IMG/VR virus record: IMGVR_UViG_3300028833_000087
Coordinates: 32,001-96,000 of that record
Length of the DNA stretch: 64,000 nucleotides
Source: a virus
Taxonomy: Duplodnaviria > Caudoviricetes
Reading direction: 5' to 3' (one strand)
Shown: piece by piece, positions 2,927 to 64,000 of the stretch
Layout: each line of letters starts with the position of its first letter
How positions within the stretch are numbered: the stretch's first letter is position 1
The notes under the pieces: model-generated
The model's database searches: none
Told to the model about the DNA's origin: nothing
What the model saw: only the letters and a program-made list of their open reading frames with translations
Translations under genes and position numbers: made by a program

Positions 2927-3682
2927 ATGATAATAAGGAGGTACCATAAAATGGATTTAAAAGCTAGATACCTACATTTAGAAACTAAACAAACTCCTAT
3001 GGAAATTCCATACGATCACAATAGAGCTGTATATCAAGATTCATATCCTGAACAAAATCAAGAATTTTTAAATAAAAGATTTAATCTTACATTTAGAGAT
3101 CTTAGACAACCTGATACAATTCTAGAGGAATTTGAAGAAAAAGAAGTAAGACAAAGAATATTTAAATGTATAAGATGGGATGTTTCTGAACCTAAAAGAT
3201 GTGTATTTGTTTCTGAAGATTTTGAGTATATTGTACAATTTACTGTAGAAAATGTCCATCCGTTTTCTGTAGATGTATATAACGATACAGAAGGATATTT
3301 ATATACTGTAAGAATTATTAATTCAGTATATGAGCAAGTTGCAGCATATCCTGAGCAAGAAATAAATGTAATAGGATTGGCAGGCACAATTCAATATGGA
3401 TGGATATTTAATGATAGAATGCTTAAAGAGGATACTAATCCTCAAAAAGCTATCGTATTAATGTCTACTTTATCTGAACCTCTTAGTGATATATTTATCA
3501 CTATTAATGATGAAGATAATACTTTTAAGGTATATGATGGCTCTGAAGTATGGTTTAAAATTGATGAGGATTTTGTTCCTCCACAAGAGTTACAGAATTT
3601 GCCAAGTACTCAAAAAATCGTAAAATATAGAGAGTATTATTTTAGAGGGAGAGTACCTTATGGAATACATGAAGATAGCTGA
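2927..3682 (+). CDS. hypothetical protein
   Basis: 251-aa ORF; true start may be ATG 2951 after AAGGAGG. Confidence 0.7.
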   Translation: MIIRRYHKMDLKARYLHLETKQTPMEIPYDHNRAVYQDSYPEQNQEFLNKRFNLTFRDLRQPDTILEEFEEKEVRQRIFKCIRWDVSEPKRCVFVSEDFEYIVQFTVENVHPFSVDVYNDTEGYLYTVRIINSVYEQVAAYPEQEINVIGLAGTIQYGWIFNDRMLKEDTNPQKAIVLMSTLSEPLSDIFITINDEDNTFKVYDGSEVWFKIDEDFVPPQELQNLPSTQKIVKYREYYFRGRVPYGIHEDS

Positions 3683-4565
3683 TTTTAAAGAAAATAAAAT
3701 TATAATAAAGAAATCTGATAAATTTGTAATAAATAATCTTATGCCTGTAGGATTTAGAGAACAGGAAAAGAATAATTTTATTTTTCTTTTTTTAGCTAAT
3801 CAAGATTTTGATGATACCAATATATATTTACAGTTGTTCTTTTCTGCTTCAAATCAGTTTGAATATGATTCTATAAAAAGGCATCCTAATTATATAAAGA
3901 ATTATAAAAATAATCCGGATTCTCTTGATATGTATAAAAAGATGATATCTAATATAAATAAAGATAATTTATATATTACAGATTTTTATATGACAAGAAA
4001 TCCGGATTTCCCGTTATATTATAATTCTTATGCTTATAAAGTCATAAATGATACTGATATTGAGAAGATGAATATATTTATTCCAAGGAATACTTTTGTA
4101 AAATTGAAGTGTTTATTGGGAAATTATAATATATTATCACCATTGCTTCCTACATCTTTAATGTATAAATTAAATATACAGAATATAAAATTTTCTCTTG
4201 TTAGCAGAATAAAGAATATTGGATCTACAATGGTTAGGCACAATGAAATTGATTATATAGATACTCATTATGTAATAAGAGCCGATAATAAAATCTACGC
4301 TATAAATTATAGATCCAAACCAAAACCTCATTTTCTTCCAATGAATATAATGGGACAAGATGATTTTTCTAAATATAAAAATGATTATTATTTAGAATAT
4401 ATATTTACATTTGAAGATAAAGTATATATTATATATCCTGAAGAAAATGATAATAAAGTGATTCTTATAATTGACAAGGATCAAATAAATAATACAAATT
4501 TTATAAATCCATATAATACGATTTACAAGGAGGAAAAGAGAAATGAGAGCACTGAAAATCAATGA
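3660..4565 (+). CDS. hypothetical protein
   Basis: 301-aa ORF overlapping its neighbours in an operon. Confidence 0.7.
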   Translation: MEYMKIADFKENKIIIKKSDKFVINNLMPVGFREQEKNNFIFLFLANQDFDDTNIYLQLFFSASNQFEYDSIKRHPNYIKNYKNNPDSLDMYKKMISNINKDNLYITDFYMTRNPDFPLYYNSYAYKVINDTDIEKMNIFIPRNTFVKLKCLLGNYNILSPLLPTSLMYKLNIQNIKFSLVSRIKNIGSTMVRHNEIDYIDTHYVIRADNKIYAINYRSKPKPHFLPMNIMGQDDFSKYKNDYYLEYIFTFEDKVYIIYPEENDNKVILIIDKDQINNTNFINPYNTIYKEEKRNESTENQ

Positions 4566-5550
4566 CATGTTAAAGCATGATAGTACGATGCTTTATAATC
4601 AGAATTATTATGATAATAAGGAAAAATCTTCTGATACTGAAGAGAAACAGATTGCTGGATTAAATATACCTTCTGATCTTGATGTAAATAAATTTATTAA
4701 ATCTGATGATGATAAAATTATTAAAAGTATTACACCTTTGACTTTATATAATTATAAAGTATCATATCATGATTATGTGCAATTATCTTATTTAGTAAAA
4801 AATGCTACCGGAAAAATATTTATTATTTCTACAATATATGATGCTGTATATGAAGGGGATGATAAAATTTTAGATTTTATTAAAAATCATGTATCATTTT
4901 ATGATGATAAACAATATATAGATAATAAATCCAGGGAGCTTGTTAATAAAACATTAATAAATACATTACCTAATTTTTATTTTGATGGAAATATTGATTT
5001 TGTTGGCGAAAATACATTTTCTATAAATGCAGTTGTAGGTGACGGTATCTATGAGAATGAGGTACAATTTACATTCGATATTGCTATTGCAAATACTATT
5101 AAATTTACTCAGGTTTATATTAGTGAATGTACTTTAAATAATCATGATATTGTATTATGTAATATTCATGGCTCTAATGATACTGAAATGAATTTGTTTA
5201 TAGTGGATAAGGTATTAGATATTATTAATATTGCCACTGTGAATGAACAAAAGACTGCTATATCTATAATGCTTAAAGTTGCTGATAAAGAAGGCAATGA
5301 ATCATTTGTATTATTCTTATGCAATTATGTAAATAATAAAATTCTTAGCAAAGTTAATAGTACACTTGATGATATTTCTAATATGTATAATAATAACGAG
5401 GATTATTGGTTAGCTGAATTCTTCTATAGTACAAAAATAGGAGATGATGGTTGTGTAATTTATTCTACTAAGAATAACAAGTGCAAATATACAACCTTTA
5501 TATTCAATAAAGAATCTGTAGATCAAATTGAAGTATTATTAAATAAATAA
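4543..5550 (+). CDS. hypothetical protein
   Basis: 335-aa ORF with AAGGAGG RBS. Confidence 0.72.
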   Translation: MRALKINDMLKHDSTMLYNQNYYDNKEKSSDTEEKQIAGLNIPSDLDVNKFIKSDDDKIIKSITPLTLYNYKVSYHDYVQLSYLVKNATGKIFIISTIYDAVYEGDDKILDFIKNHVSFYDDKQYIDNKSRELVNKTLINTLPNFYFDGNIDFVGENTFSINAVVGDGIYENEVQFTFDIAIANTIKFTQVYISECTLNNHDIVLCNIHGSNDTEMNLFIVDKVLDIINIATVNEQKTAISIMLKVADKEGNESFVLFLCNYVNNKILSKVNSTLDDISNMYNNNEDYWLAEFFYSTKIGDDGCVIYSTKNNKCKYTTFIFNKESVDQIEVLLNK

Positions 5551-5551
5551 A

Positions 5552-5596
5552 AAAGAGTTTGGTCCTAGGGGATATGCCCCTAGGACCAAACTCTTT
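5552..5596. terminator. 20-bp hairpin, likely bidirectional intrinsic terminator
   Basis: aaagagtttggtcctagggg / cccctaggaccaaactcttt perfect inverted repeat, 5-nt loop. Confidence 0.8.
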
Positions 5597-5738
5597 ATGG
5601 TAAACACTAAATTTATTGCACTTTAGAAAGGTAGGTATTTCTGAATAAAATTTGCTCTAGGAGGTAACAAACTTTACAAGTGCAATTTATAATATAGTTA
5701 AACTTATAAATAAACTATTTATAAGGAGAGCTAAAATC

Positions 5739-6218
5739 ATGATTTATCCAGCTAAAATAAGCTCTTTTCTGAATAAACACCCATTATATGTTCCATATAA
5801 AATATGTAAACCAAATGAACGATTAAAATATTATAGAAGATATTGGTTTGAAGATAGACAGGAAATTATAAAGGTTTTAGAAATATATGAAATAGATGAC
5901 ATTGAATATTATTTTATAAAAATAGGGACAAGTTTATATGGATCAATACCTTATCCAGTAAAAGAAGCTACATATGAATTGGTGCCAGATACAAAAGATT
6001 TATTTTCAAGAGATAATATTATAGGAGATAATAATTATTATACAGGAGCAGAAATAAAATTTTGGTTCTTTTTACATAAAGAGATTTTAAGAAAATATAG
6101 TAAAGATATAGTATCTTTTATAGATCCAGATAGTAAAAATGTATTAAATGATAATATATATTATAAACTAGAATACTATAAAGAATCAATAAAAATAAAT
6201 AAAAAGAATATCCCCTGA
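5739..6218 (+). CDS. hypothetical protein
   Basis: 159-aa ORF with AAGGAG RBS. Confidence 0.7.
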   Translation: MIYPAKISSFLNKHPLYVPYKICKPNERLKYYRRYWFEDRQEIIKVLEIYEIDDIEYYFIKIGTSLYGSIPYPVKEATYELVPDTKDLFSRDNIIGDNNYYTGAEIKFWFFLHKEILRKYSKDIVSFIDPDSKNVLNDNIYYKLEYYKESIKINKKNIP

Positions 6219-6243
6219 GGCATAAACCTCAGGGGATATTCTT
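6204..6243. terminator. bidirectional terminator between convergent genes
   Basis: aagaatatcccctgagg / cctcaggggatattctt inverted repeat. Confidence 0.8.
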
Positions 6244-6279
6244 CAATTAGGAGAAAATATATAAACAATGAAAACAACC

Positions 6280-6894
6280 TTAGCTCATATCGTCCGGATT
6301 GTATTTGTATCTCTCACTAGCAATAACAATCTTGTTAGCACGACATACAATACTATAGGACAGCTTCGGATATTTACCAGGTTCATCCTTTGCATAAGAA
6401 ACAGTAGTTGCAAAATAGCAAGGATAGTATGCAACTAATTCTGCAAGTAATTTAATTTCATCTGTATTCAGATCTTCATCCTGTCTATCTTCATCGTTAA
6501 GAATATGAAGAATCTCAAGCAGTCTATCAGCCTGCTCTTTAGGAAGATCTATATCTGATCTTACAAAAATATACGTTGTATATTCCTTGTCTTCATTAAA
6601 CCAAGCCAAACGACTCTTGGTAAAATATTCAGAAAGCAACGGAATAGATGTTAATGATACAGGTCTAGAATCCAGACATTTTCTTACCACAGTAATATTT
6701 TGATTATTCAGTAATGAATCAAGACGATCTGGATCTACAGTAAAAGCTAAGTCTCTAGATGCTTTGTCATTTCTCTTAGCAGATTTTTCAATTGCAAGCT
6801 TGATATCATTGTAGTCAATAGTATACGGACGTACATTACCATGCTTGTCATTACGCGGTGTGGACTGCTGCCCATCAGTGTTAGGATTAGCCAT
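6280..6894 (-). CDS. hypothetical protein
   Basis: 204-aa ORF with AAGGAG RBS and a late-promoter-like motif upstream. Confidence 0.75.
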   Translation of the reverse strand: MANPNTDGQQSTPRNDKHGNVRPYTIDYNDIKLAIEKSAKRNDKASRDLAFTVDPDRLDSLLNNQNITVVRKCLDSRPVSLTSIPLLSEYFTKSRLAWFNEDKEYTTYIFVRSDIDLPKEQADRLLEILHILNDEDRQDEDLNTDEIKLLAELVAYYPCYFATTVSYAKDEPGKYPKLSYSIVCRANKIVIASERYKYNPDDMS

Positions 6895-7036
6895 CTTTTC
6901 AGTCTCCTTTTCTTTTTATTAGATTTGATAAATAAATTAGCTCTCATCAAATGATGATTAATGTAATGTATAGAAAATCATTAAAAATAACAAGCATATT
7001 TAACTCTCATATAATCATATTATAGGAGGTTATACA

Positions 7037-7765
7037 ATGGAAACTGTTATAGATGAATATGGTATTAAACTTATAAAGAAAATTGAAAAGTGTCATTTAA
7101 CTGCAGTAAAATCTCCTTTTGGAAATATTATAGGATATGGACATAAATATTCAGATAAAGAGAAAATAACTCAAGAAGAAGCAGAAGAATTATTAAAATT
7201 AGATTGGATAATTTGTGCAGATTTTGTTTATAATAAAGAATATGTACCATTTATAGATTTATTAAATAAAAATCAAATAAATGCTTTAATATCATTTACT
7301 ATGGATTGTGGTGTTGTAAGTTTAAAGAAATTATGTGTAAGACCTTTATCTAAAATTCCAAATGCTATGCTTGGTTTTATTTCTGTTGAAGGAATTCCAA
7401 ATGAAGAAAAAGCTAAAAGAAGATTTATAGAACGTGCTATATTTTTATCTACAGAAGATAATAAAAATATAGAGAATATAAAAGAAATAGATCAAGCAAT
7501 GCTTAATAGACTATTTGATAAAAAATATGTAAATAAATTTCCGGTTCCTGATAAAGAATTTTCAAGAAATAAATGTAATCTTGATCAAACAAAATGGTTA
7601 CAGACAGCATTAAAATATGTAGGCTATTATAATGGAAATATTGATGGTGTATTTGGTTCAGATACATATAATGCTGTAAAGTTGTTCCAAAAGGAATATA
7701 CTTTTAAAAAGCCAGATGGTATTATGGATTTAGAATCTATAAATATATTACAAAAATTAGTATAA
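7037..7765 (+). CDS. GH24 lysozyme-like domain plus C-terminal peptidoglycan-binding domain
   Basis: GIKLIKKIE...IGYGH, ITQEEAEELL, LNKNQINALISF, RR..E..IF; C-terminal WLQTALKYVGY...IDGVFG..T..AVK.FQ. Confidence 0.85.
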   Translation: METVIDEYGIKLIKKIEKCHLTAVKSPFGNIIGYGHKYSDKEKITQEEAEELLKLDWIICADFVYNKEYVPFIDLLNKNQINALISFTMDCGVVSLKKLCVRPLSKIPNAMLGFISVEGIPNEEKAKRRFIERAIFLSTEDNKNIENIKEIDQAMLNRLFDKKYVNKFPVPDKEFSRNKCNLDQTKWLQTALKYVGYYNGNIDGVFGSDTYNAVKLFQKEYTFKKPDGIMDLESINILQKLV

Positions 7766-7866
7766 ATATATCCTCCAGGAAAAATTCCTGGAGGATTAAT
7801 TTTCTTTATAATTGTATATTATAATTATGGTAAATACATTAAATTTATACCGAAAGGAGAAACAAA

Positions 7867-8091
7867 ATGAAAAGTATTTTAAAGAAAGTTGCAACAGATG
7901 ATGAATTTAACGAAAGGAATGATATTGACCAGAACGGTGAATATATAATAGCCGAAGGTGATATCAAAGATCTTATTATTAAAGCAAAATCTATTTCTGA
8001 TGCTTGTAATGGTGAAGAAGTAGAAATGCGAATTGTAGATAAAGATGGTACAACAAGACATACATTTGATGAAAATGGAATGGTAAACTAA
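7867..8091 (+). CDS. hypothetical protein
   Basis: RBS, downstream of a TATATTATA promoter motif. Confidence 0.6.
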   Translation: MKSILKKVATDDEFNERNDIDQNGEYIIAEGDIKDLIIKAKSISDACNGEEVEMRIVDKDGTTRHTFDENGMVN

Positions 8092-8105
8092 GAAAGGAAA
8101 TAAAA

Positions 8106-8363
8106 ATGATTATACATGGTACAGTATCAAGAAGACCAAATGAAAGTGATAAAAATCAATATCTTGTTAACAAAGTAGTAGGTATATCTACAGATCATAC
8201 TCCGATTGAACGGCCTTTCCAAATCTTTAATAGTAAAGAAATACTTGAATTATGGTGGGAAGGACTTGAAGAAGATCGTAAGAAAGATATGATTATTTAT
8301 CGTTTTTGTGACGGTAAAAATCCTAAAATGTATACTATTAAAACAAATAAAAAAGGAGAATAA
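8106..8363 (+). CDS. hypothetical protein
   Basis: 85-aa ORF with RBS. Confidence 0.6.
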   Translation: MIIHGTVSRRPNESDKNQYLVNKVVGISTDHTPIERPFQIFNSKEILELWWEGLEEDRKKDMIIYRFCDGKNPKMYTIKTNKKGE

Positions 8364-58832: not shown

Positions 58833-59930
58833 ATGAAAGTTCTGCTTATAGGTATTGGTGCTGCTGGTAATAAAGCTGTAGTTCAAGCTGTAGAAGATAA
58901 GGTTATTGCTGAAGAAGATTCTATTATTATTAATTCTACTGATAAAGATTTCCCAAAAGAATTTAATGGAAAGAAAATGATTTTATCTCCTAATAATCAG
59001 GGATGTGGTAAAGAAAGAGCAACTGCCTATGCTTTTACTAAAGCTCTAATTGAAAATGATACTCTTAATATTGATTGTTCTAAATATAATACAGTAATTG
59101 TTTGTGCATCTGTTGAAGGTGGTACAGGATCTGGTTCAGCTCCTTTGATTGCTAAATACTTTAAGCATGTCCATAATAGAAATGTACATGTGATTGCTTT
59201 TATTGGATTTGAAGATGATCCTAGAGGATTATCAAATACTGTAGAATTCTTTAAAGAATTAGAATCTGATCTTATTGTACAGACTATTAGAAATTCTTCT
59301 TTTATGAAACAAGCTGGTGGTAATAAGTTTAAAGCTGAAGAATTAGCTAATAAAGAAATGAGCAAGAGAATTAAGATTATTACTGGTCAGCAGTTTCTAA
59401 ATTCTGAACAGAATATTGATGATACTGATATTCTTAAAGTATCAAATACTGCAGGATATATGACTGTAGAAGAAAAGTATTTAGATAAGAATTTAGAAAC
59501 TGTAGAAGATTTTAATAAAGTGGTTAAGAATATGATTTATAATTCTCACTCTATTAAATCTAATTCTCCTAAGGCTATTCGTATTGGTGTTATTCTTAAT
59601 ATTGAACCTGGTTCAGAAGATGCTATTGATTATACATTTACTGATATCACTGAAGCATATGGTAATCCTTATGAAAAATATCTTCAGAAACAATGGGATG
59701 GTAATAAAGAATATATTCAGTGGATTGTATCTGGTATGCAGATGCCGTTAGATGAGATTAAAGAGATTTATGATAGATATCTTGCTGAATCTGATAAGGT
59801 ACAGAAAGACGCTGATACTTTCTTTAAAACAATGGAAACAATGCAGATGGATAGTAGTAATTCTAGATTCGATATGATTAAACCTGAAGAAAAGAAAATG
59901 AGCAAAGATGCATTTTTAAAGAATCTATAA
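58833..59930 (+). CDS. tubulin/FtsZ-family GTPase (PhuZ/TubZ-like)
   Basis: IGIGAAGNK, GCGK, tubulin signature GGTGSG, T7-like NIDDTD. Confidence 0.9.
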   Translation: MKVLLIGIGAAGNKAVVQAVEDKVIAEEDSIIINSTDKDFPKEFNGKKMILSPNNQGCGKERATAYAFTKALIENDTLNIDCSKYNTVIVCASVEGGTGSGSAPLIAKYFKHVHNRNVHVIAFIGFEDDPRGLSNTVEFFKELESDLIVQTIRNSSFMKQAGGNKFKAEELANKEMSKRIKIITGQQFLNSEQNIDDTDILKVSNTAGYMTVEEKYLDKNLETVEDFNKVVKNMIYNSHSIKSNSPKAIRIGVILNIEPGSEDAIDYTFTDITEAYGNPYEKYLQKQWDGNKEYIQWIVSGMQMPLDEIKEIYDRYLAESDKVQKDADTFFKTMETMQMDSSNSRFDMIKPEEKKMSKDAFLKNL

Positions 59931-59935
59931 TTAAA

Positions 59936-59961
59936 ACCCTGGACGAATATTCGTCCAGGGT
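59936..59961 (+). terminator. hairpin ending the tubulin gene
   Basis: accctggacgaa/ttcgtccagggt. Confidence 0.75.
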
Positions 59962-59978
59962 AATATATTAAATAATAA

Positions 59979-59987
59979 TATATTATA
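59979..59987 (+). promoter_or_regulatory. phage early-type promoter motif TATATTATA upstream of the pentamer array
   Basis: Same motif at 7815, 26946, 36155, 37164, 39901 and 49537; variants at 9670, 33886 and ~63175. Confidence 0.65.
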
Positions 59988-60010
59988 AATATGAAAGGAG
60001 GTTAATAATT

Positions 60011-60526
60011 TTAGTAATTGTGTAGTTGCGTACTACGATGTGCGGTTAGGCTAAGTATATGCTTTGTATTGTGCGGTAGAGCGATGTGGTGTATATGTAT
60101 AGTAGTGTATTATTTTAGTTCAGTAGAGTAAAGTAAATGTGAAGTGAAGTGCTGAAACTTGTAGTGTGGCATATGTAAGGTTTGACAATGTATTGTCGAG
60201 TAAATGTATAGTGAAGTATGGTAACGCCTAGTCAAGTACAGTAGTGTAAATGCATAGTCGAGTCCTGTGTCGTAAATGTATTGCCAGGTAGTATGGTGTA
60301 CTAGTATAGTCACTTACTGCTCAGTATAGTCAAGTAAATGTATTGTGACGTAGCATAACGTTATGTTCAGCGGTGTAAATGTATAGCGACGTAAAGTTTA
60401 GTTCTGTAAATGTATGGTAATACACATTGTGCCAATACGTGGTAATGTATTTGTAAAGTAAGGTATATTTAAATTACGTGAAGTAAATGTAAAGTAAGGT
60501 TGGGTAAAGTATTATTAAGTAAATAT
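60011..60526 (+). repeat. pentamer-periodic array, left arm: (NNNGY)4-8 blocks separated by AAATGT-like hexamers
   Basis: Example: aaatgt-atagt-gaagt-atggt-aacgc-ctagt-caagt-acagt-agtgt-aaatgc; about 14 blocks by manual parse. Confidence 0.9.
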
Positions 60527-60539
60527 TTAAAGAAAGGAG

Positions 60540-60845
60540 ATGGTGTTTATGCATGATATGAGAAGAAAGAAAGATCGAATTTGGCGTGAAGCCAAAGGAA
60601 TCTGCTCTCATTGTGGTCATAAGATCTATAGTATGAGAAATAAAACTTTAGATCATTTTATTCCAAAATCATGCTTCGGATCTTATGATGAGAGAAATTT
60701 ATTTGCGCTATGTAAAAGATGTAATGAAGAAAGGGGGAATGCTCTTGTAGGACTTGATTACTATGTATATGCGTCTGAAAACAAAAAGATGCAAGCATAT
60801 CAATACGGACTTGAATACAATACCAGAACATCTTCTATGCAGTAA
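60540..60845 (+). CDS. HNH endonuclease (McrA-like, two CxxC pairs) embedded in the array
   Basis: CSHCG...TLDHFIPKS..GS....NL..LCKRCN..RG; AAAGGAG RBS (start could be ATG 60549). Confidence 0.88.
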   Translation: MVFMHDMRRKKDRIWREAKGICSHCGHKIYSMRNKTLDHFIPKSCFGSYDERNLFALCKRCNEERGNALVGLDYYVYASENKKMQAYQYGLEYNTRTSSMQ

Positions 60846-61178
60846 ATGTATAGTGTAGTGAAGTGGAGCCCAGTAAATGCAAGTTAAAGTCTAGTATCAT
60901 ATGGTATAGTACAGTAAAGTATATGTAAAGTACGGTGTAGTAAAATACAGTAAATGTTTTGTAGGGTATTGTGCCATTTTGTGAAGTGATTGTATGGTGA
61001 AGTAGAGTACAGTAAATGTAAGGTGTAATGGAGTATGGTCTGGTAAAGTAGATGTGAGGTAACGCACAGTTTTGTGCTGTTGGATGATGTATATGTAAGG
61101 TGAGGCGTAGCAGTGCTGAGTCGTGTGGTGTAATGGCGAAGTGGTGCAGAGTCATGCTTTGTGATGTAAAGTAATTGT
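60839..61178 (+). repeat. pentamer-periodic array, right arm
   Basis: Example: atatgt-aaggt-gaggc-gtagc-agtgc-tgagt-cgtgt-ggtgt-aatggc; 9 blocks by manual parse. Confidence 0.9.
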
Positions 61179-61183
61179 TCGAT

Positions 61184-61223
61184 TATACAAGCATACTTAC
61201 AATTTAGTAAGTATGCTTGTATA
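61184..61223. terminator. 17-bp perfect hairpin closing the array
   Basis: tatacaagcatacttac / gtaagtatgcttgtata; there is no clear U tract, so it may be a processing or stability stem. Confidence 0.6.
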
Positions 61224-61244
61224 TATCCGAAAGGAGAATATTTA

Positions 61245-62138
61245 ATGAGTTTATTTGATAATTTTTTAAATCAAATAAAAGAAAGTCCTAAATCTGAAAA
61301 AGTTCATATTCCTCTATATAATACTATAGAGTATAAAATATCTACTTTAGTAGATATGATAAATAATGTAGATTCTATATCTGATGAAGAATTAAAGAAT
61401 GTAATCATAAGACAGCATAAAATGATATTAAATTATGATCCATTCTTATCTAATCAAGATACTAGAAGATCTGCATTAAAGTTATTTACAAATAAAAGGT
61501 TCCTTAATTTATTTCTTGAAGTTATTGGATTCTTGGATTTATCAAGAGAACAAGTTATTTGTATAAATAAACTTGCTTATGATTATTATGTATCTAATAA
61601 TAAAGAAAAAGAAATATCAGAACTATTATTATCTATTTGCTATCTTATCAATAATCAATTGATTATTCGACTTTCTGCAAAGATGGATATTACAAATGCG
61701 AGAGTTTTATCAATGATAGCTAACTCTACATTTAAAATAGAAAAGAAAGTTCATAGAGTAAATGTATTCTTTTTAAAGAAAGATACAAATAAAGAATTTA
61801 CTGTACAAGATTATATAGATATTTATATAATACTATTTGATCATTTTAGAGAATTATTTACATATTCAATGTTTGAAGCTTGGACAACTCCTATCACAGA
61901 TGAGTGTGCTCAATTACAATATGATAGATTCTTAAGAATGTCAGCAGCTTTAATAATTATGCTTGATAGTTTAACAAGTAAAGATATAGCGACAGTATTA
62001 AGAGAATATGGCTACACTTTGTCTATGATACCGAATAGTCCTATTAGATTTTCTATAAAGAATATGAAAAAGTATGATAGAATCAAAGATATAGCACATA
62101 GTCTTGAAGTAAATGAAAATGATATTTTAATTCCCTAA
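61245..62138 (+). CDS. hypothetical protein
   Basis: 297 aa with AAGGAG RBS; helical character. Confidence 0.72.
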   Translation: MSLFDNFLNQIKESPKSEKVHIPLYNTIEYKISTLVDMINNVDSISDEELKNVIIRQHKMILNYDPFLSNQDTRRSALKLFTNKRFLNLFLEVIGFLDLSREQVICINKLAYDYYVSNNKEKEISELLLSICYLINNQLIIRLSAKMDITNARVLSMIANSTFKIEKKVHRVNVFFLKKDTNKEFTVQDYIDIYIILFDHFRELFTYSMFEAWTTPITDECAQLQYDRFLRMSAALIIMLDSLTSKDIATVLREYGYTLSMIPNSPIRFSIKNMKKYDRIKDIAHSLEVNENDILIP

Positions 62139-62236
62139 GGAGAAATCCTTAGGGATGTTTTTATTTTTTCACAATCATATAATGATATATCTAATATCAC
62201 TTAACTAAATATAATTTAAGATTGGAGGATAGATAA

Positions 62237-63127
62237 ATGAAAATTAAAGCTTTTAAAGGATTTAATCCTGATATGACTTGTAAAAAGTTTAAATTTGTTC
62301 CTGGCGTGGAATATAGTATGGATGAAGATAAAATTAATTTGTGTACAAGAGGATTTCATTCTTGTATTATTCCTCTGCAATGTTTCAGCTATTACAAACC
62401 ATTAGCAGGTGTATTTCATGAAGTAGAAATAGATGGTGCTATGGAAATAGCAAAAGCTAATTCCAAGATAGTATCATCTAAAATTACTGTAGAAGAACAT
62501 GAATTAGATTCTAAAGAAATAGTTAATGAAACTTATGATTGTATTGAGATGCTTACAGGTGATACAGATTATCACGATACAATATTAGAAGATCTTTCAG
62601 AAAAATTAAAAAATTCTAAAATTAAAGGATCTATTAATGTTTCTAATGCTTATCGTTCTATAGCAGCATCTAATATAGATGATGATTTAGGAAATGGTTC
62701 TGTTATTAATACTGGCGGTAAATCTATTGCAGCATCTGTTGGTAATGATAAATGCGTTGCTACATCTGATACTAATTCTATAGCTGCATCTGTTGGTAAA
62801 ACAAATAATGTGATATCTGCTGGATCTAAATCTATCGCTGCATCTATAGGAGATTATAATTTGGTAACTGCAGGTAATCAGGGTGTAATTGCAGTATCTG
62901 TTGGTGAGCAATGTAAAGTTATAGCTGAAAAAGCAGGTTCTATGGCTATTATTACTACAGATTCTATTGGAAAAGGAGCTTTAAATTCTTATCTTGTATT
63001 TGTAAATACAGTTAAGAATGCTGATGAAACTACTATAGATAAAGTTATTACTATATTTATTGATGGTTCAAAATATCGTCCAAATACTTGGTATAAATTA
63101 GATAATGGTGTTGTAAAAGAAGCATAA
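62237..63127 (+). CDS. phage protein with KAFKGF/GFHSC N-terminal domain and ~11-aa SIAAS repeats (probable beta-solenoid)
   Basis: KAFKGF..DMTC, LC.RGFHSC..PL.CF.YY; repeated SIAAS(V/I)G; YRPNTWYKL. Confidence 0.72.
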   Translation: MKIKAFKGFNPDMTCKKFKFVPGVEYSMDEDKINLCTRGFHSCIIPLQCFSYYKPLAGVFHEVEIDGAMEIAKANSKIVSSKITVEEHELDSKEIVNETYDCIEMLTGDTDYHDTILEDLSEKLKNSKIKGSINVSNAYRSIAASNIDDDLGNGSVINTGGKSIAASVGNDKCVATSDTNSIAASVGKTNNVISAGSKSIAASIGDYNLVTAGNQGVIAVSVGEQCKVIAEKAGSMAIITTDSIGKGALNSYLVFVNTVKNADETTIDKVITIFIDGSKYRPNTWYKLDNGVVKEA

Positions 63128-63254: not shown

Positions 63255-64000
63255 ATGGTTGAAGAACAGGTAATGAAGGTGCGTTTAACGTTCCTGCAGG
63301 ATGTGCTGGGAACACAGCCCACAGACTCAAAGATCTATGAGTCCTTTCTGGCTACCAAGATGAGAAAAGAAATGGAGAAATCTGGGTACAAGGAAGAGAA
63401 GATCGATGAGAAGATCAATAAGGGTATGGAAGCACTTCCGAACAACGAAGATGGGGAATTCTATCGTGATGGCGTTACGGTATTTCCTCGTCTGAAGATC
63501 AAGGAAACCGGAGAAGAGATCCCGGCTATTGAAGGATACTTACTCAAAGGATTCTTCAAGAATGCATGCTGGGCATGTGCAAAAGCAGATGGATTGTCCG
63601 CAGAACTGTCAGCTTACAAAAAGTACATTGACAATATGACTGATGTAAATGAGATCAGTCCTATCATTGTCAACGACGATGTAAAGAAATACATGGAGGA
63701 GCATAAAGGAACTCTTCCTTTATTTCAGCGTCCGATCAGAATTTCCGACAGAAATGGTGAGCGTGTAGCGCTTGCTTGCTCAGAGTATGTACCGGCTGGT
63801 AGCTATATCGATTTTGAAATCACAGCTATGTCTGAAGAGGCATTGAATTTCGTTATCGAATGGCTCAACTACGGCAAGCATAATGGACTTTGCTGCTGGA
63901 GAAATTCTGGTAAAGGAAAGTTTGACTGGATCGATCTTGATCTTGGTGCTAAGAGGGAGATTAATCCCAAAGCAATCAAGAAAAAAGGTAAGAAAAAGAA
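63255..64000 (+). CDS. Cas7/Csm3-like RAMP-fold protein (runs off the window end; absent from the ORF track)
   Basis: AGGAGG RBS, at least 248 open codons; KVRLTFLQDVLG, PAIEGYLLKGFFKNA, SEYVPAGSYIDFEI, glycine-rich loop GLCCWRNSGKGKF. Confidence 0.8.
   Translation, partial: MVEEQVMKVRLTFLQDVLGTQPTDSKIYESFLATKMRKEMEKSGYKEEKIDEKINKGMEALPNNEDGEFYRDGVTVFPRLKIKETGEEIPAIEGYLLKGFFKNACWACAKADGLSAELSAYKKYIDNMTDVNEISPIIVNDDVKKYMEEHKGTLPLFQRPIRISDRNGERVALACSEYVPAGSYIDFEITAMSEEALNFVIEWLNYGKHNGLCCWRNSGKGKFDWIDLDLGAKREINPKAIKKKGKKK

What the first reader, a model, noticed from the sequence alone, without database searches (positions are those of the whole stretch)
60516..60860. HNH gene spliced into the array grammar
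Seen: the left arm ends taagt-aaatat and runs straight into the RBS. The HNH stop codon TAA is itself part of the next gcagt-aaatgt delimiter, and the periodicity resumes at once. The catalytic His, both Asn and both CxxC pairs are intact, and there is no separate DNA-binding domain. Inference: either a co-transcribed effector nuclease occupying a block position, or a mobile HNH that inserted at a delimiter.
Basis: partly seen in the sequence, partly recalled or inferred. Interest (0 to 1): 0.72.

Follow-up and report, generated by a model that had tools for sequence, protein, structure and literature searches.

The report
HNH gene inside phage VIPR array
A small, intact HNH nuclease gene sits exactly between two guide-RNA units of a giant phage's VIPR array (a CRISPR-like system first described in 2026), but it looks like a lineage-specific passenger gene and not a built-in nuclease of that system.

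Summary
A 98-aa HNH gene (60549-60845) lies between two stretches of 5-nt-periodic non-coding DNA. Its ribosome site directly follows a GTAAATAT delimiter, and its TAA stop lies inside the next GTAAATGT delimiter.

The "array grammar" is a VIPR system (bioRxiv 10.64898/2026.04.26.720920). The downstream 254-aa protein folds as a Cas7/Csm3-like RAMP. In 79 of 80 IMG/VR loci, its homologues sit next to a 5-nt-periodic array on the same strand. Other follow-ups in this scan had already filed such loci on other DNA as VIPR. I confirmed this by reading the preprints.

The HNH is not a conserved part of the system:
- Among 85 Vipr loci, one other has an HNH, 3.3 kb from its array.
- One relative has a 4.5-kb uninterrupted array, and others carry unrelated small genes between array blocks.
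- The 71%-identical HNH homologue sits on a contig with no array and no Vipr within about 3 kb, and DNA similarity there stops at the ORF ends.

Best reading (0.6): a free-standing HNH cassette, possibly a homing endonuclease, that landed at a guide boundary and is co-transcribed.

Rival (0.25): a recruited VIPR accessory nuclease. The preprint reports predicted nucleases only in host-encoded VIPR types.

Contigs of the closest relatives could not be fetched, so no HNH-less allele was tested.

The parts
59962..60002 (+). A/T-rich promoter-like stretch and an orphan Shine-Dalgarno-like AAAGGAGG just before array 1, after the hairpin that ends the tubulin-like gene
   Evidence: Sequence. The consensus scan lists only a weak sigma-70-like match at 59940-59969. 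No start codon lies at a proper distance from the AAAGGAGG. The promoter function is inferred.
60011..60526 (+). vrRNA array 1: about 12 units, each a GTAAAT/GTATAT hexamer plus 4-9 G-Y-N-N-N pentamers. It ends in the degenerate delimiter GTAAATAT (60519-60526).
   Evidence: Phase tracking and unit parsing. C makes up only 9% of this strand.
60532..60539 (+). Ribosome-binding site GAAAGGAG of the HNH gene
   Evidence: Sequence. This is the only upstream element shared with the L104 homologue.
60549..60845 (+). HNH endonuclease gene, 98 aa. An alternative ATG at 60540 would give 101 aa. The TAA stop at 60843-60845 lies inside the next delimiter.
   Evidence: Pfam HNH and HNH_5; PHROG HNH families; invariant catalytic and zinc residues; AF2 model with pLDDT 92; HNH folds as nearest structures.
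60842..61178 (+). vrRNA array 2: about 9 units with spacings 31, 46, 31, 36, 26, 36, 41 and 82 nt
61184..61223 (+). Perfect 17-bp hairpin that closes the array1-HNH-array2 block, directly before the RBS of the next gene
   Evidence: Inverted repeat I2. No T-run follows it, so a terminator function is only inferred.
61245..62138 (+). 297-aa ORF with no recognisable family
   Evidence: No Pfam or PHROG hit; no usable ESM Atlas neighbour; no homologue in any of the other 84 Vipr loci.
62237..63127 (+). DUF7666 protein, an occasional neighbour of vipr genes
   Evidence: Pfam DUF7666 E 4e-24; phrog_4433. Homologues lie within 5 kb of vipr in 8 of 85 loci, and one lies directly after vipr in L004.
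63255..64000 (+). vipr gene (Cas7/Csm3-like RAMP, 254 aa). It runs to window position 64019, just past the window end. Array 3 follows at about 64090-64470 (L001:5090-5470).
   Evidence: AF2 model pLDDT 85; Foldseek Csm3 E 1e-7; VIA Z 12.8 with the top 27 hits all CRISPR RAMP subunits (Cas7-type, Cmr1/Cmr6). An array lies next to homologues in 79 of 80 IMG/VR loci. Array 3 was read.

Best explanation
The HNH gene is lineage-specific cargo in a VIPR guide array.

The 5-nt-periodic tracts are vrRNA arrays of a phage-borne VIPR system. The system consists of a Vipr RAMP protein plus pentamer-coded guide RNAs, here of a G-Y-N-N-N / WGT-NN type with hexamer-marked unit boundaries.

The HNH ORF, with its own RBS, is a self-contained cassette that sits exactly at a boundary between two guide units. 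It leaves both neighbouring units intact. It is probably transcribed from the array promoter as part of one array1-HNH-array2 RNA.

It most likely arrived by insertion or recombination at a delimiter. It persists either as a selfish free-standing HNH (homing-endonuclease-like) gene or as a simple passenger. It is not a defining component of the VIPR machinery.

Shown here: the anatomy, an intact HNH active site, the Vipr fold, the Vipr-array linkage, and the absence of an HNH from other Vipr loci.

Inferred: co-transcription, the insertion history, and any homing activity.
For: 1. The system is VIPR.
- The Vipr fold is shown.
- In 79 of 80 IMG/VR loci and in 3 INPHARED loci, a 5-nt-periodic array lies directly beside the homologue, on its strand.
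- The published description matches. It names alternative YNNNG repeats and staggered arrays. A later preprint reports WGT/NN variants.

2. The HNH is not conserved with Vipr.
- An HMM of the HNH family, run against all ORFs of 85 Vipr loci, finds only L063, and that gene is 3.3 kb from its array.
- The HNH is a singleton in the neighbour clustering.
- L024 has a 4.5-kb array with no + strand ORF of 50 aa or more.

3. Other arrays hold unrelated cargo at equivalent places.
- L131/L138 has the same GTAAATGT delimiter although its Vipr is only 26% identical. Five small non-HNH ORFs lie between its array blocks.
- There too, an array ends in GTAAATGT and runs into an RBS, and an ORF stop lies inside ATAAATGT.
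- L033/L034 carry a 92-aa ORF, and L094 a 123-aa phrog_7024 ORF.

4. The same cassette occurs in a different context.
- L104 carries a 71%-identical HNH flanked by a DnaA-like ATPase and a WYL/WCX regulator.
- L104 has no array and no Vipr within 2.8-3.1 kb.
- DNA similarity runs only from the RBS to the stop.
- P0003's N-terminal extension shares the L104 upstream reading, which points to a second contig of that context.

5. None of the 37 loci with more distant HNH relatives has an array or a Vipr.

6. The family is tiny. One 50%-identity cluster among 1.84 billion representatives reaches E < 1e-30.

7. HNH GC3 is 0.26, against 0.09-0.16 in the three adjacent phage genes.
Against: - The HNH is only 98 aa and has no DNA-binding domain. 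That is atypical for a site-specific homing endonuclease and fits a partner-guided nuclease better.
- The HNH seems to be retained in relatives. P0117 (82% HNH) and P0007 (60% Vipr) both come from a JGI contig of 4563 nt, so they are probably one contig. P0118's N-terminal extension reads like array DNA.
- All family members keep their catalytic residues.
- HNH-domain Vap proteins exist in some VIPR types.
- No HNH-less allele in a close relative was seen, because those contigs could not be fetched.
- L104 is only 6.2 kb long, so a VIPR further away on that element is not excluded.
Confidence: 0.6

Rival explanations
1. The HNH is a recruited VIPR accessory nuclease (Vap-like). It is co-expressed from within the guide array, and the Vipr-vrRNA filament bound to target DNA brings the domain-poor HNH to the R-loop or triplex. 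Silencing then becomes cleavage. This would parallel the predicted nuclease Vaps of host-encoded VIPR types III-V, and the HNH-Cascade variants of type I CRISPR.
For: - The preprint states that types III-V encode predicted nucleases or helicases, and it shows an HNH-domain Vap in Fig. S21.
- The HNH has no targeting domain of its own.
- Its nearest solved folds are guide-dependent or partner-dependent HNH domains, such as Cas9 HNH and Cap5.
- It sits inside the array transcription unit with no terminator-like site on either side.
- It appears to be retained, with intact catalytic residues, in relatives whose Vipr has diverged to 60%.
Against: - An HNH is absent from 83 of the 84 other Vipr loci examined, and the one exception is not in the array.
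- Equivalent array gaps in other phages hold unrelated genes.
- A 71% homologue works in a context without VIPR.
- The preprint reports predicted nucleases only in host-encoded, defence-island types, not in phage types.
- Homology to the published HNH Vap could not be tested, because no sequences were held.
Confidence: 0.25
2. The HNH is an ordinary phage housekeeping or auxiliary nuclease, for example a nicking enzyme for recombination, replication or host-DNA attack. It merely lies in a permissive, highly transcribed non-coding region, and has neither mobility nor any link to VIPR.
For: - Small stand-alone HNH genes are common in phages. Its weak homologues are annotated HNH endonucleases in cyanophages, Myxococcus phage Mx1 and others.
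- It matches 22 PHROG HNH families.
- It is the only Pfam HNH in the 121-kb record.
- The VIPR region holds other unrelated genes: the 297-aa ORF and the DUF7666 gene.
Against: - A housekeeping gene would be expected in related jumbo phages. Yet the family is a single small cluster among 1.84 billion representatives.
- The same cassette appears in an unrelated element.
- The exact fit to unit boundaries on both sides suggests insertion at, or selection around, delimiters.
Confidence: 0.12
3. The HNH is an RNA-processing enzyme that cuts the long array transcript at the hexamer delimiters to release individual vrRNAs.
For: - Its position is bounded by delimiters on both sides.
- No Cas6-like or ribozyme processing element was found in the window: no Rfam family reached its gathering score.
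Against: - Every other Vipr-array locus examined has none of these HNH genes, yet shows the same delimiter grammar.
- HNH enzymes are overwhelmingly DNases (established knowledge).
- The preprint describes staggered arrays without a dedicated nuclease.
Confidence: 0.03

Closest known systems
VIPR systems: Vipr RAMP plus vrRNA. Type II exemplars are Escherichia phage SUSP1 and a Pseudomonas fulva prophage. bioRxiv 10.64898/2026.04.26.720920 and 10.64898/2026.04.26.720927.
   Same: - A lone Cas7-like RAMP gene flanked by long non-coding arrays with 5-nt periodicity.
- Phage-encoded, with no cas1/2/3 genes and no CRISPR repeats.
- Arrays lie on the gene's strand, both upstream and downstream.
   Different: - The fixed part here is G-Y (about WGT), not GGY. 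This variant class is mentioned in the preprint's methods (YNNNG) and in 10.64898/2026.10.21.760802 (WGT/NN).
- Units are short (4-9 pentamers) and are marked by a GTAAAT/GTATAT hexamer, not by a structured 3' tail.
- There are about 30 units in three blocks.
- A protein-coding HNH gene sits between two blocks.
Nuclease-type Vap proteins of VIPR types III-V, including the HNH-domain Vap shown in Fig. S21 of 10.64898/2026.04.26.720920
   Same: An HNH-domain protein encoded within a VIPR locus.
   Different: - The preprint describes those as conserved accessory genes of host-encoded, defence-island types.
- Here the HNH is in a phage and inside the array.
- It is absent from the other members of this Vipr family that I examined.
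- Sequence relationship to the published Vap could not be tested.
Free-standing HNH homing endonuclease genes of phages, such as the T4 mob genes and I-HmuI of SPO1 (from general knowledge)
   Same: - A small HNH ORF with its own RBS, dropped between functional units and co-transcribed with its neighbours.
- Patchy distribution.
- The same cassette is found in unrelated genomic contexts.
   Different: - Known homing HNH enzymes usually carry extra DNA-binding modules and are 150-300 aa. This one is 98 aa.
- No empty-site allele or cleavage site is known for it.
Minimal stand-alone or embedded HNH domains: Gme HNH nicking endonuclease (PDB 4h9d), Cas9 HNH domains (8f43, 7mpz), EcoKMcrA (6ghc)
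   Same: The beta-beta-alpha-metal fold with two CxxC zinc ligand pairs and the D-H...N...N motif. Foldseek probability 1.00, TM 0.5-0.6.
   Different: Sequence identity is only 20-30%, and a shared fold does not show a shared function.
HNH-Cascade variants of type I CRISPR-Cas (for example PDB 8yb6, Type I-E HNH Cascade)
   Same: An HNH nuclease associated with a RAMP-filament, RNA-guided complex. This is the precedent for the rival reading.
   Different: In those systems the HNH is fused to a Cascade subunit and is conserved within the subtype. Here it is a separate gene and is not conserved.

Membership tests
HNH endonuclease superfamily (Pfam PF01844 / PF14279) | Profile match above the curated cut-off | tested here: met
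   PF01844 scores 34 bits against a cut-off of 21.4. PF14279 scores 32.7 against 27.5.
HNH endonuclease superfamily (Pfam PF01844 / PF14279) | Beta-beta-alpha-metal fold with the catalytic His, the structural and metal-binding Asn residues, and two CxxC zinc pairs | tested here: met
   C19, C22, H36, N50, C55, C58 and N59 are invariant and D35 is nearly invariant. The AF2 model has pLDDT 92. Cas9 HNH, McrA and Gme HNH are the top structural matches.
VIPR system (the locus as a whole) | A Vipr protein: a minimal RAMP with an RRM core, a G-loop and a thumb | tested here: met
   The model has pLDDT 85. Csm3 is the best match (Foldseek E 1e-7; VIA Z 12.8, rmsd 3.6, 166 aligned). The G-loop WRNSGKG is conserved. 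Direct comparison with a published Vipr structure was not possible.
VIPR system (the locus as a whole) | Tandem 5-nt repeats with a fixed trinucleotide and variable dinucleotide (GGY/NN or a related consensus) flanking vipr | tested here: met
   The logo is G 83% / Y 100% / N / N / N, with the preceding base A 44%. This matches the published related consensus (YNNNG, WGT/NN), not canonical GGY. In 79 of 80 loci with a homologue, an array lies beside the gene.
VIPR system (the locus as a whole) | vrRNAs are expressed, bound by Vipr, and direct DNA binding by the 1-nt-skip code | not testable with these tools
   No RNA-seq or biochemistry was available. My in-silico skip-rule matches on the phage's own genome and on L104 were at chance level for these short units.
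Vap (VIPR accessory protein) | Conserved synteny with vipr across a Vipr clade | tested here: not met
   The HNH-family HMM hits 1 of the 84 other Vipr loci (L063), and that gene is not adjacent to the array. The HNH is a singleton in the neighbour clustering.
Vap (VIPR accessory protein) | Homology to one of the published vap1-6 families | not testable with these tools
   The preprint's data files are not held, and its text gives no sequences.
Free-standing homing endonuclease gene | The same gene cassette occurs in otherwise unrelated genomic contexts | tested here: met
   In the window-versus-L104 DNA alignment, similarity is confined to the stretch from the RBS to the stop. The L104 context has no array and no Vipr.
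Free-standing homing endonuclease gene | Presence/absence polymorphism at the same site among close relatives | not testable with these tools
IMG/VR scans with the HNH, the tubulin-like protein and the 297-aa ORF found no close relatives.
Free-standing homing endonuclease gene | Site-specific cleavage of the HNH-less allele | not testable with these tools
   This needs purified protein and substrate.

The most novel reading that the evidence does not exclude
The HNH is a genuine VIPR-coupled nuclease carried by a phage. It is expressed from inside the guide array and recruited by the Vipr-vrRNA filament, so that this jumbo-phage VIPR cuts the DNA it recognises, not merely silences it. That would be the first nuclease-armed VIPR on the virus side. 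The preprint reports predicted nucleases only in host-encoded types.
Probability: 0.2. Interest if true: 0.7.

Novelty: new member of a known kind. Interest (0 to 1): 0.35.

Why it matters
The array and RAMP gene belong to VIPR, a class of RNA-guided DNA-silencing systems published in 2026. The "grammar" itself is therefore no longer new, although this G-Y-N-N-N, hexamer-delimited, jumbo-phage version is a divergent instance.

The HNH adds two modest points:
- vrRNA arrays tolerate protein-coding cargo at guide boundaries, in at least four phage lineages. Array callers and annotators should allow for this.
- It gives a concrete candidate to test whether a minimal HNH can be coupled to a Vipr filament. 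If the coupling were real, it would extend nuclease-armed VIPRs to phages and would interest tool developers.

On present evidence the ordinary explanation, a passenger or selfish HNH, is more likely.

Tried and rejected
- The contigs of the closest HNH relatives (P0001, P0002, P0005, P0117-P0122) and Vipr relatives (P0007-P0009) could not be read. The HNH-less allele test therefore failed for lack of data.
- **Scans that found nothing close.**
  - Single-protein IMG/VR scans with the HNH, Vipr, tubulin-like and 297-aa proteins found no close relatives.
  - blastn of the array region and of L104 against phage records found nothing.
  - The plasmid search found only a 35% HNH.
- **Rfam.** No family matched in the window or in L001 5000-10001, so no hammerhead or other known RNA lies in or near the arrays.
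- **Before I found the VIPR papers.** I considered a TubZ/PhuZ centromere, a TRAP-like 5-nt RNA site, an anti-termination or Rho-resistant RNA, and a type III anti-CRISPR decoy. I dropped all of them once the Vipr fold and the published system explained the periodicity.
- **Target prediction.** The 1-nt-skip rule (both NN choices), run on the phage's own genome and on L104, gave only chance-level matches. The units have only 4-9 pentamers.
- **A false lead.** L107 showed a periodic signal. It is a 55-nt GTAAG/GTAAA run inside an open reading frame, not an array.
- **High-GC arrays.** They contain many spurious ORFs because stop codons are rare. I did not count these as cargo.
- **The 297-aa ORF.** The ESM Atlas gave no usable neighbour.

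Full report

Yes. The window is part of a 121,433-bp IMG/VR virus record that CheckV rates as about 49% complete. The record is AT-rich (29% GC) and carries a tubulin/PhuZ-like gene at 58833-59930.

From about 60011 to 61178 the + strand is non-coding. It is C-poor (7-9% C) and has GT every 5 nt, with a +1 slip at each GTAAAT/GTATAT hexamer. Any 150-nt stretch of the tract holds up to 18 GT-GT pairs at lag 5, where most of the rest of the window holds 0-2. In the whole record the signal occurs only here and in a third block just past the window end.

The tract is interrupted by one ORF:
- The delimiter GTAAATAT is at 60519-60526, followed by GAAAGGAG at 60532-60539.
- ATG at 60549 is the likelier start. 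The ATG at 60540 touches the RBS.
- The stop TAA is at 60843-60845, inside GTAAATGT (60842-60849).
- The register then resumes.

The ORF is an intact HNH:
- It matches Pfam HNH and HNH_5.
- C19, C22, H36, N50, C55, C58 and N59 are invariant, and D35 is nearly invariant.
- The AF2 model has pLDDT 92 and a single beta-beta-alpha-metal core.
- Cas9 HNH, McrA and Gme HNH are the nearest solved folds.

**2. What is the "array grammar"?**

The 254-aa gene at 63255-64019 has no Pfam or PHROG match. It nevertheless folds confidently (pLDDT 85) as a Cas7/Csm3-type RAMP. Foldseek gives E 1e-7. VIA-align gives Z 12.8, and the top 27 hits are all CRISPR RAMP subunits (Cas7-type, Cmr1/Cmr6).

A family alignment found at least 456 relatives in IMG/VR. 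In 79 of the 80 fetched loci, and in three human-gut phage records, a 5-nt-periodic array lies directly beside the gene on its strand. It is upstream in some loci and downstream in others. Thirty-seven loci fetched through HNH relatives show none.

I at first treated this as undescribed, and my first literature searches found nothing. Notes from other follow-ups in this scan named VIPR systems, so I read the papers.

The discovery preprint (10.64898/2026.04.26.720920) describes:
- phage-encoded Vipr RAMPs;
- vrRNAs made of GGY/NN pentamers, which recognise DNA by a 1-nt-skip code and silence transcription;
- seven types, with accessory genes vap1-6;
- alternative repeats (NNNGG, YNNNG, NNNNG);

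A later preprint reports WGT/NN variants. The structural paper shows one pentamer per Vipr step.

The window's units are a hexamer plus 4-9 G-Y-N-N-N pentamers, about 30 units in three blocks. This fits a divergent VIPR array.

**3. Is the HNH part of the system?**

Distribution says no.
- An HMM of the HNH family, run against every ORF of 85 Vipr loci, hits only L063. That HNH lies 3.3 kb from its array.
- In a neighbour clustering the HNH and the 297-aa ORF are singletons. The recurrent neighbours are instead an HTH repressor (51 loci), an SSB (37), a small HTH protein (20), Rha (17) and an integrase (16). This places most modules in the early or immunity region of temperate phages of about 40 kb.
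- L024, from a 243-kb contig, has a 4.5-kb array with no + strand ORF of 50 aa or more.
- L131/L138, from a 117-kb contig, uses the same GTAAATGT delimiter although its Vipr is only 26% identical. Its array blocks are separated by five small non-HNH ORFs.
- The "welded" junctions recur there. One array ends GTAAATGTAATTTAAACC...AAGGAG and runs into a start codon. One ORF stop lies inside ATAAATGT.
- L033/L034 and L094 also carry unrelated small ORFs between array blocks.

Cargo at guide boundaries is therefore a general property of these arrays, not something special to the HNH.

**4. Where else is this HNH?**

The family is very small.
- There are five 90%-identity clusters.
- Only one 50%-identity cluster among 1.84 billion representatives reaches E < 1e-30. 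The next relative is 40% identical.
- The 71% homologue lies on L104, a 6.2-kb contig, between a DnaA-like ATPase and a WYL/WCX regulator. It has no array and no Vipr.
- DNA similarity to the window starts at the RBS and stops at the stop codon.
- P0003's N-terminal read-through matches L104's upstream sequence, which indicates a second contig of that type.
- More distant relatives (24-46%) lie in cyanophages, gut phages, cyanobacteria, Dehalococcoidia and others. None is near an array.

Within the phage lineage itself the HNH appears to be retained. P0117 (82% HNH) and P0007 (60% Vipr) both come from a JGI contig of 4563 nt. P0118's extension reads like array DNA. These last points are inferences, because the contigs could not be fetched.

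**5. Mechanism**

- **Most likely (0.6).** The HNH is a self-contained ORF-plus-RBS cassette that entered at a delimiter and left both adjacent guide units whole. It is transcribed with the array, because no terminator-like site lies between 59961 and the 61184-61223 hairpin. It persists as a selfish or passenger gene. If the contigs are what they seem, the HNH is more conserved than Vipr (82% against 60%), which would fit homing-type spread.
- **Rival (0.25).** It is a recruited accessory nuclease. It has no targeting domain, and HNH Vaps exist, although the preprint reports predicted nucleases only in host-encoded types.
- **Minor rivals.** An unrelated phage nuclease (0.12), or an RNA-processing enzyme (0.03).

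**6. Novelty**

The array and RAMP gene are already described as VIPR in 2026 preprints, and this scan has filed similar loci on other DNA. The HNH is a new member of an ordinary kind, a free-standing phage HNH, in an unusual place.

**Limits**
- No relatives' contigs could be read.
- No vap sequences were available.
- No expression data were available.
- Skip-rule target prediction was uninformative for these short units.

Noticed in passing
window 59993-60010: An orphan Shine-Dalgarno-like AAAGGAGG sits at the very start of array 1, with no start codon at a usable distance. It may be the remnant of a lost ORF or a ribosome-loading site on the array transcript.
   Followed up: no
window 63255-64000 (vipr), compared with 58833-63127: The vipr gene has GC 42.5% and GC3 0.46 in a 29% GC genome whose three adjacent genes have GC3 0.09-0.16. 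The HNH has GC3 0.26. This suggests the VIPR parts were acquired from a more GC-rich source, or are under a different codon regime.
   Followed up: partly
L131 + L138 (IMGVR_UViG_3300027896_000017, positions 3160-8350): A 117-kb phage uses the identical GTAAATGT unit delimiter, although its Vipr is only 26% identical to the window's. The delimiter core (AATG) also recurs as GGAAATG or GTAATGG in GC-rich relatives (L002-L004, L033). The boundary mark thus seems more conserved than the protein.
   Followed up: partly
L024:5738-10392 (IMGVR_UViG_3300035520_000350, 243 kb): A 4.5-kb uninterrupted pentamer array lies downstream of a Vipr homologue. It is one of the longest arrays seen here.
   Followed up: partly
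85 Vipr loci (L001-L004, L024-L103, L131): In the roughly 40-kb gut phages, the Vipr-array module usually sits right after a divergent HTH repressor and before an SSB or replication genes, often 0.5-1.5 kb from a contig end. That is the early or immunity region. A small HTH protein lies directly upstream of vipr in 16 loci and may be this clade's Vap.
   Followed up: partly
window 62237-63127; L004:6612-7025: A DUF7666 / phrog_4433 protein lies next to vipr both here and in MT835477, and within 5 kb in 8 of 85 loci. It is a possible occasional accessory gene.
   Followed up: partly
L001:6300-8753 (genome 97299-99752, beyond the window end), minus strand: Two adjacent ORFs of 415 aa and 321 aa lie about 240 nt apart, next to a 212-aa ORF. 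From the sequences alone they look like the two halves of an anaerobic ribonucleotide reductase (NrdD) and its NrdG-type activase. No family search was run on them. They could be a split gene or contain an intron. No Rfam family matched the gap.
   Followed up: partly
L107:60-115: A 55-nt GTAAG/GTAAA pentamer run lies inside an open reading frame of an unrelated metagenome contig that also carries a distant HNH. I judged it a coincidence.
   Followed up: yes
window 58833-59930: A tubulin/FtsZ-family (PhuZ/TubZ-like) gene lies immediately upstream of array 1. This is consistent with a jumbo phage. A centromere reading of the repeats was considered and dropped.
   Followed up: partly
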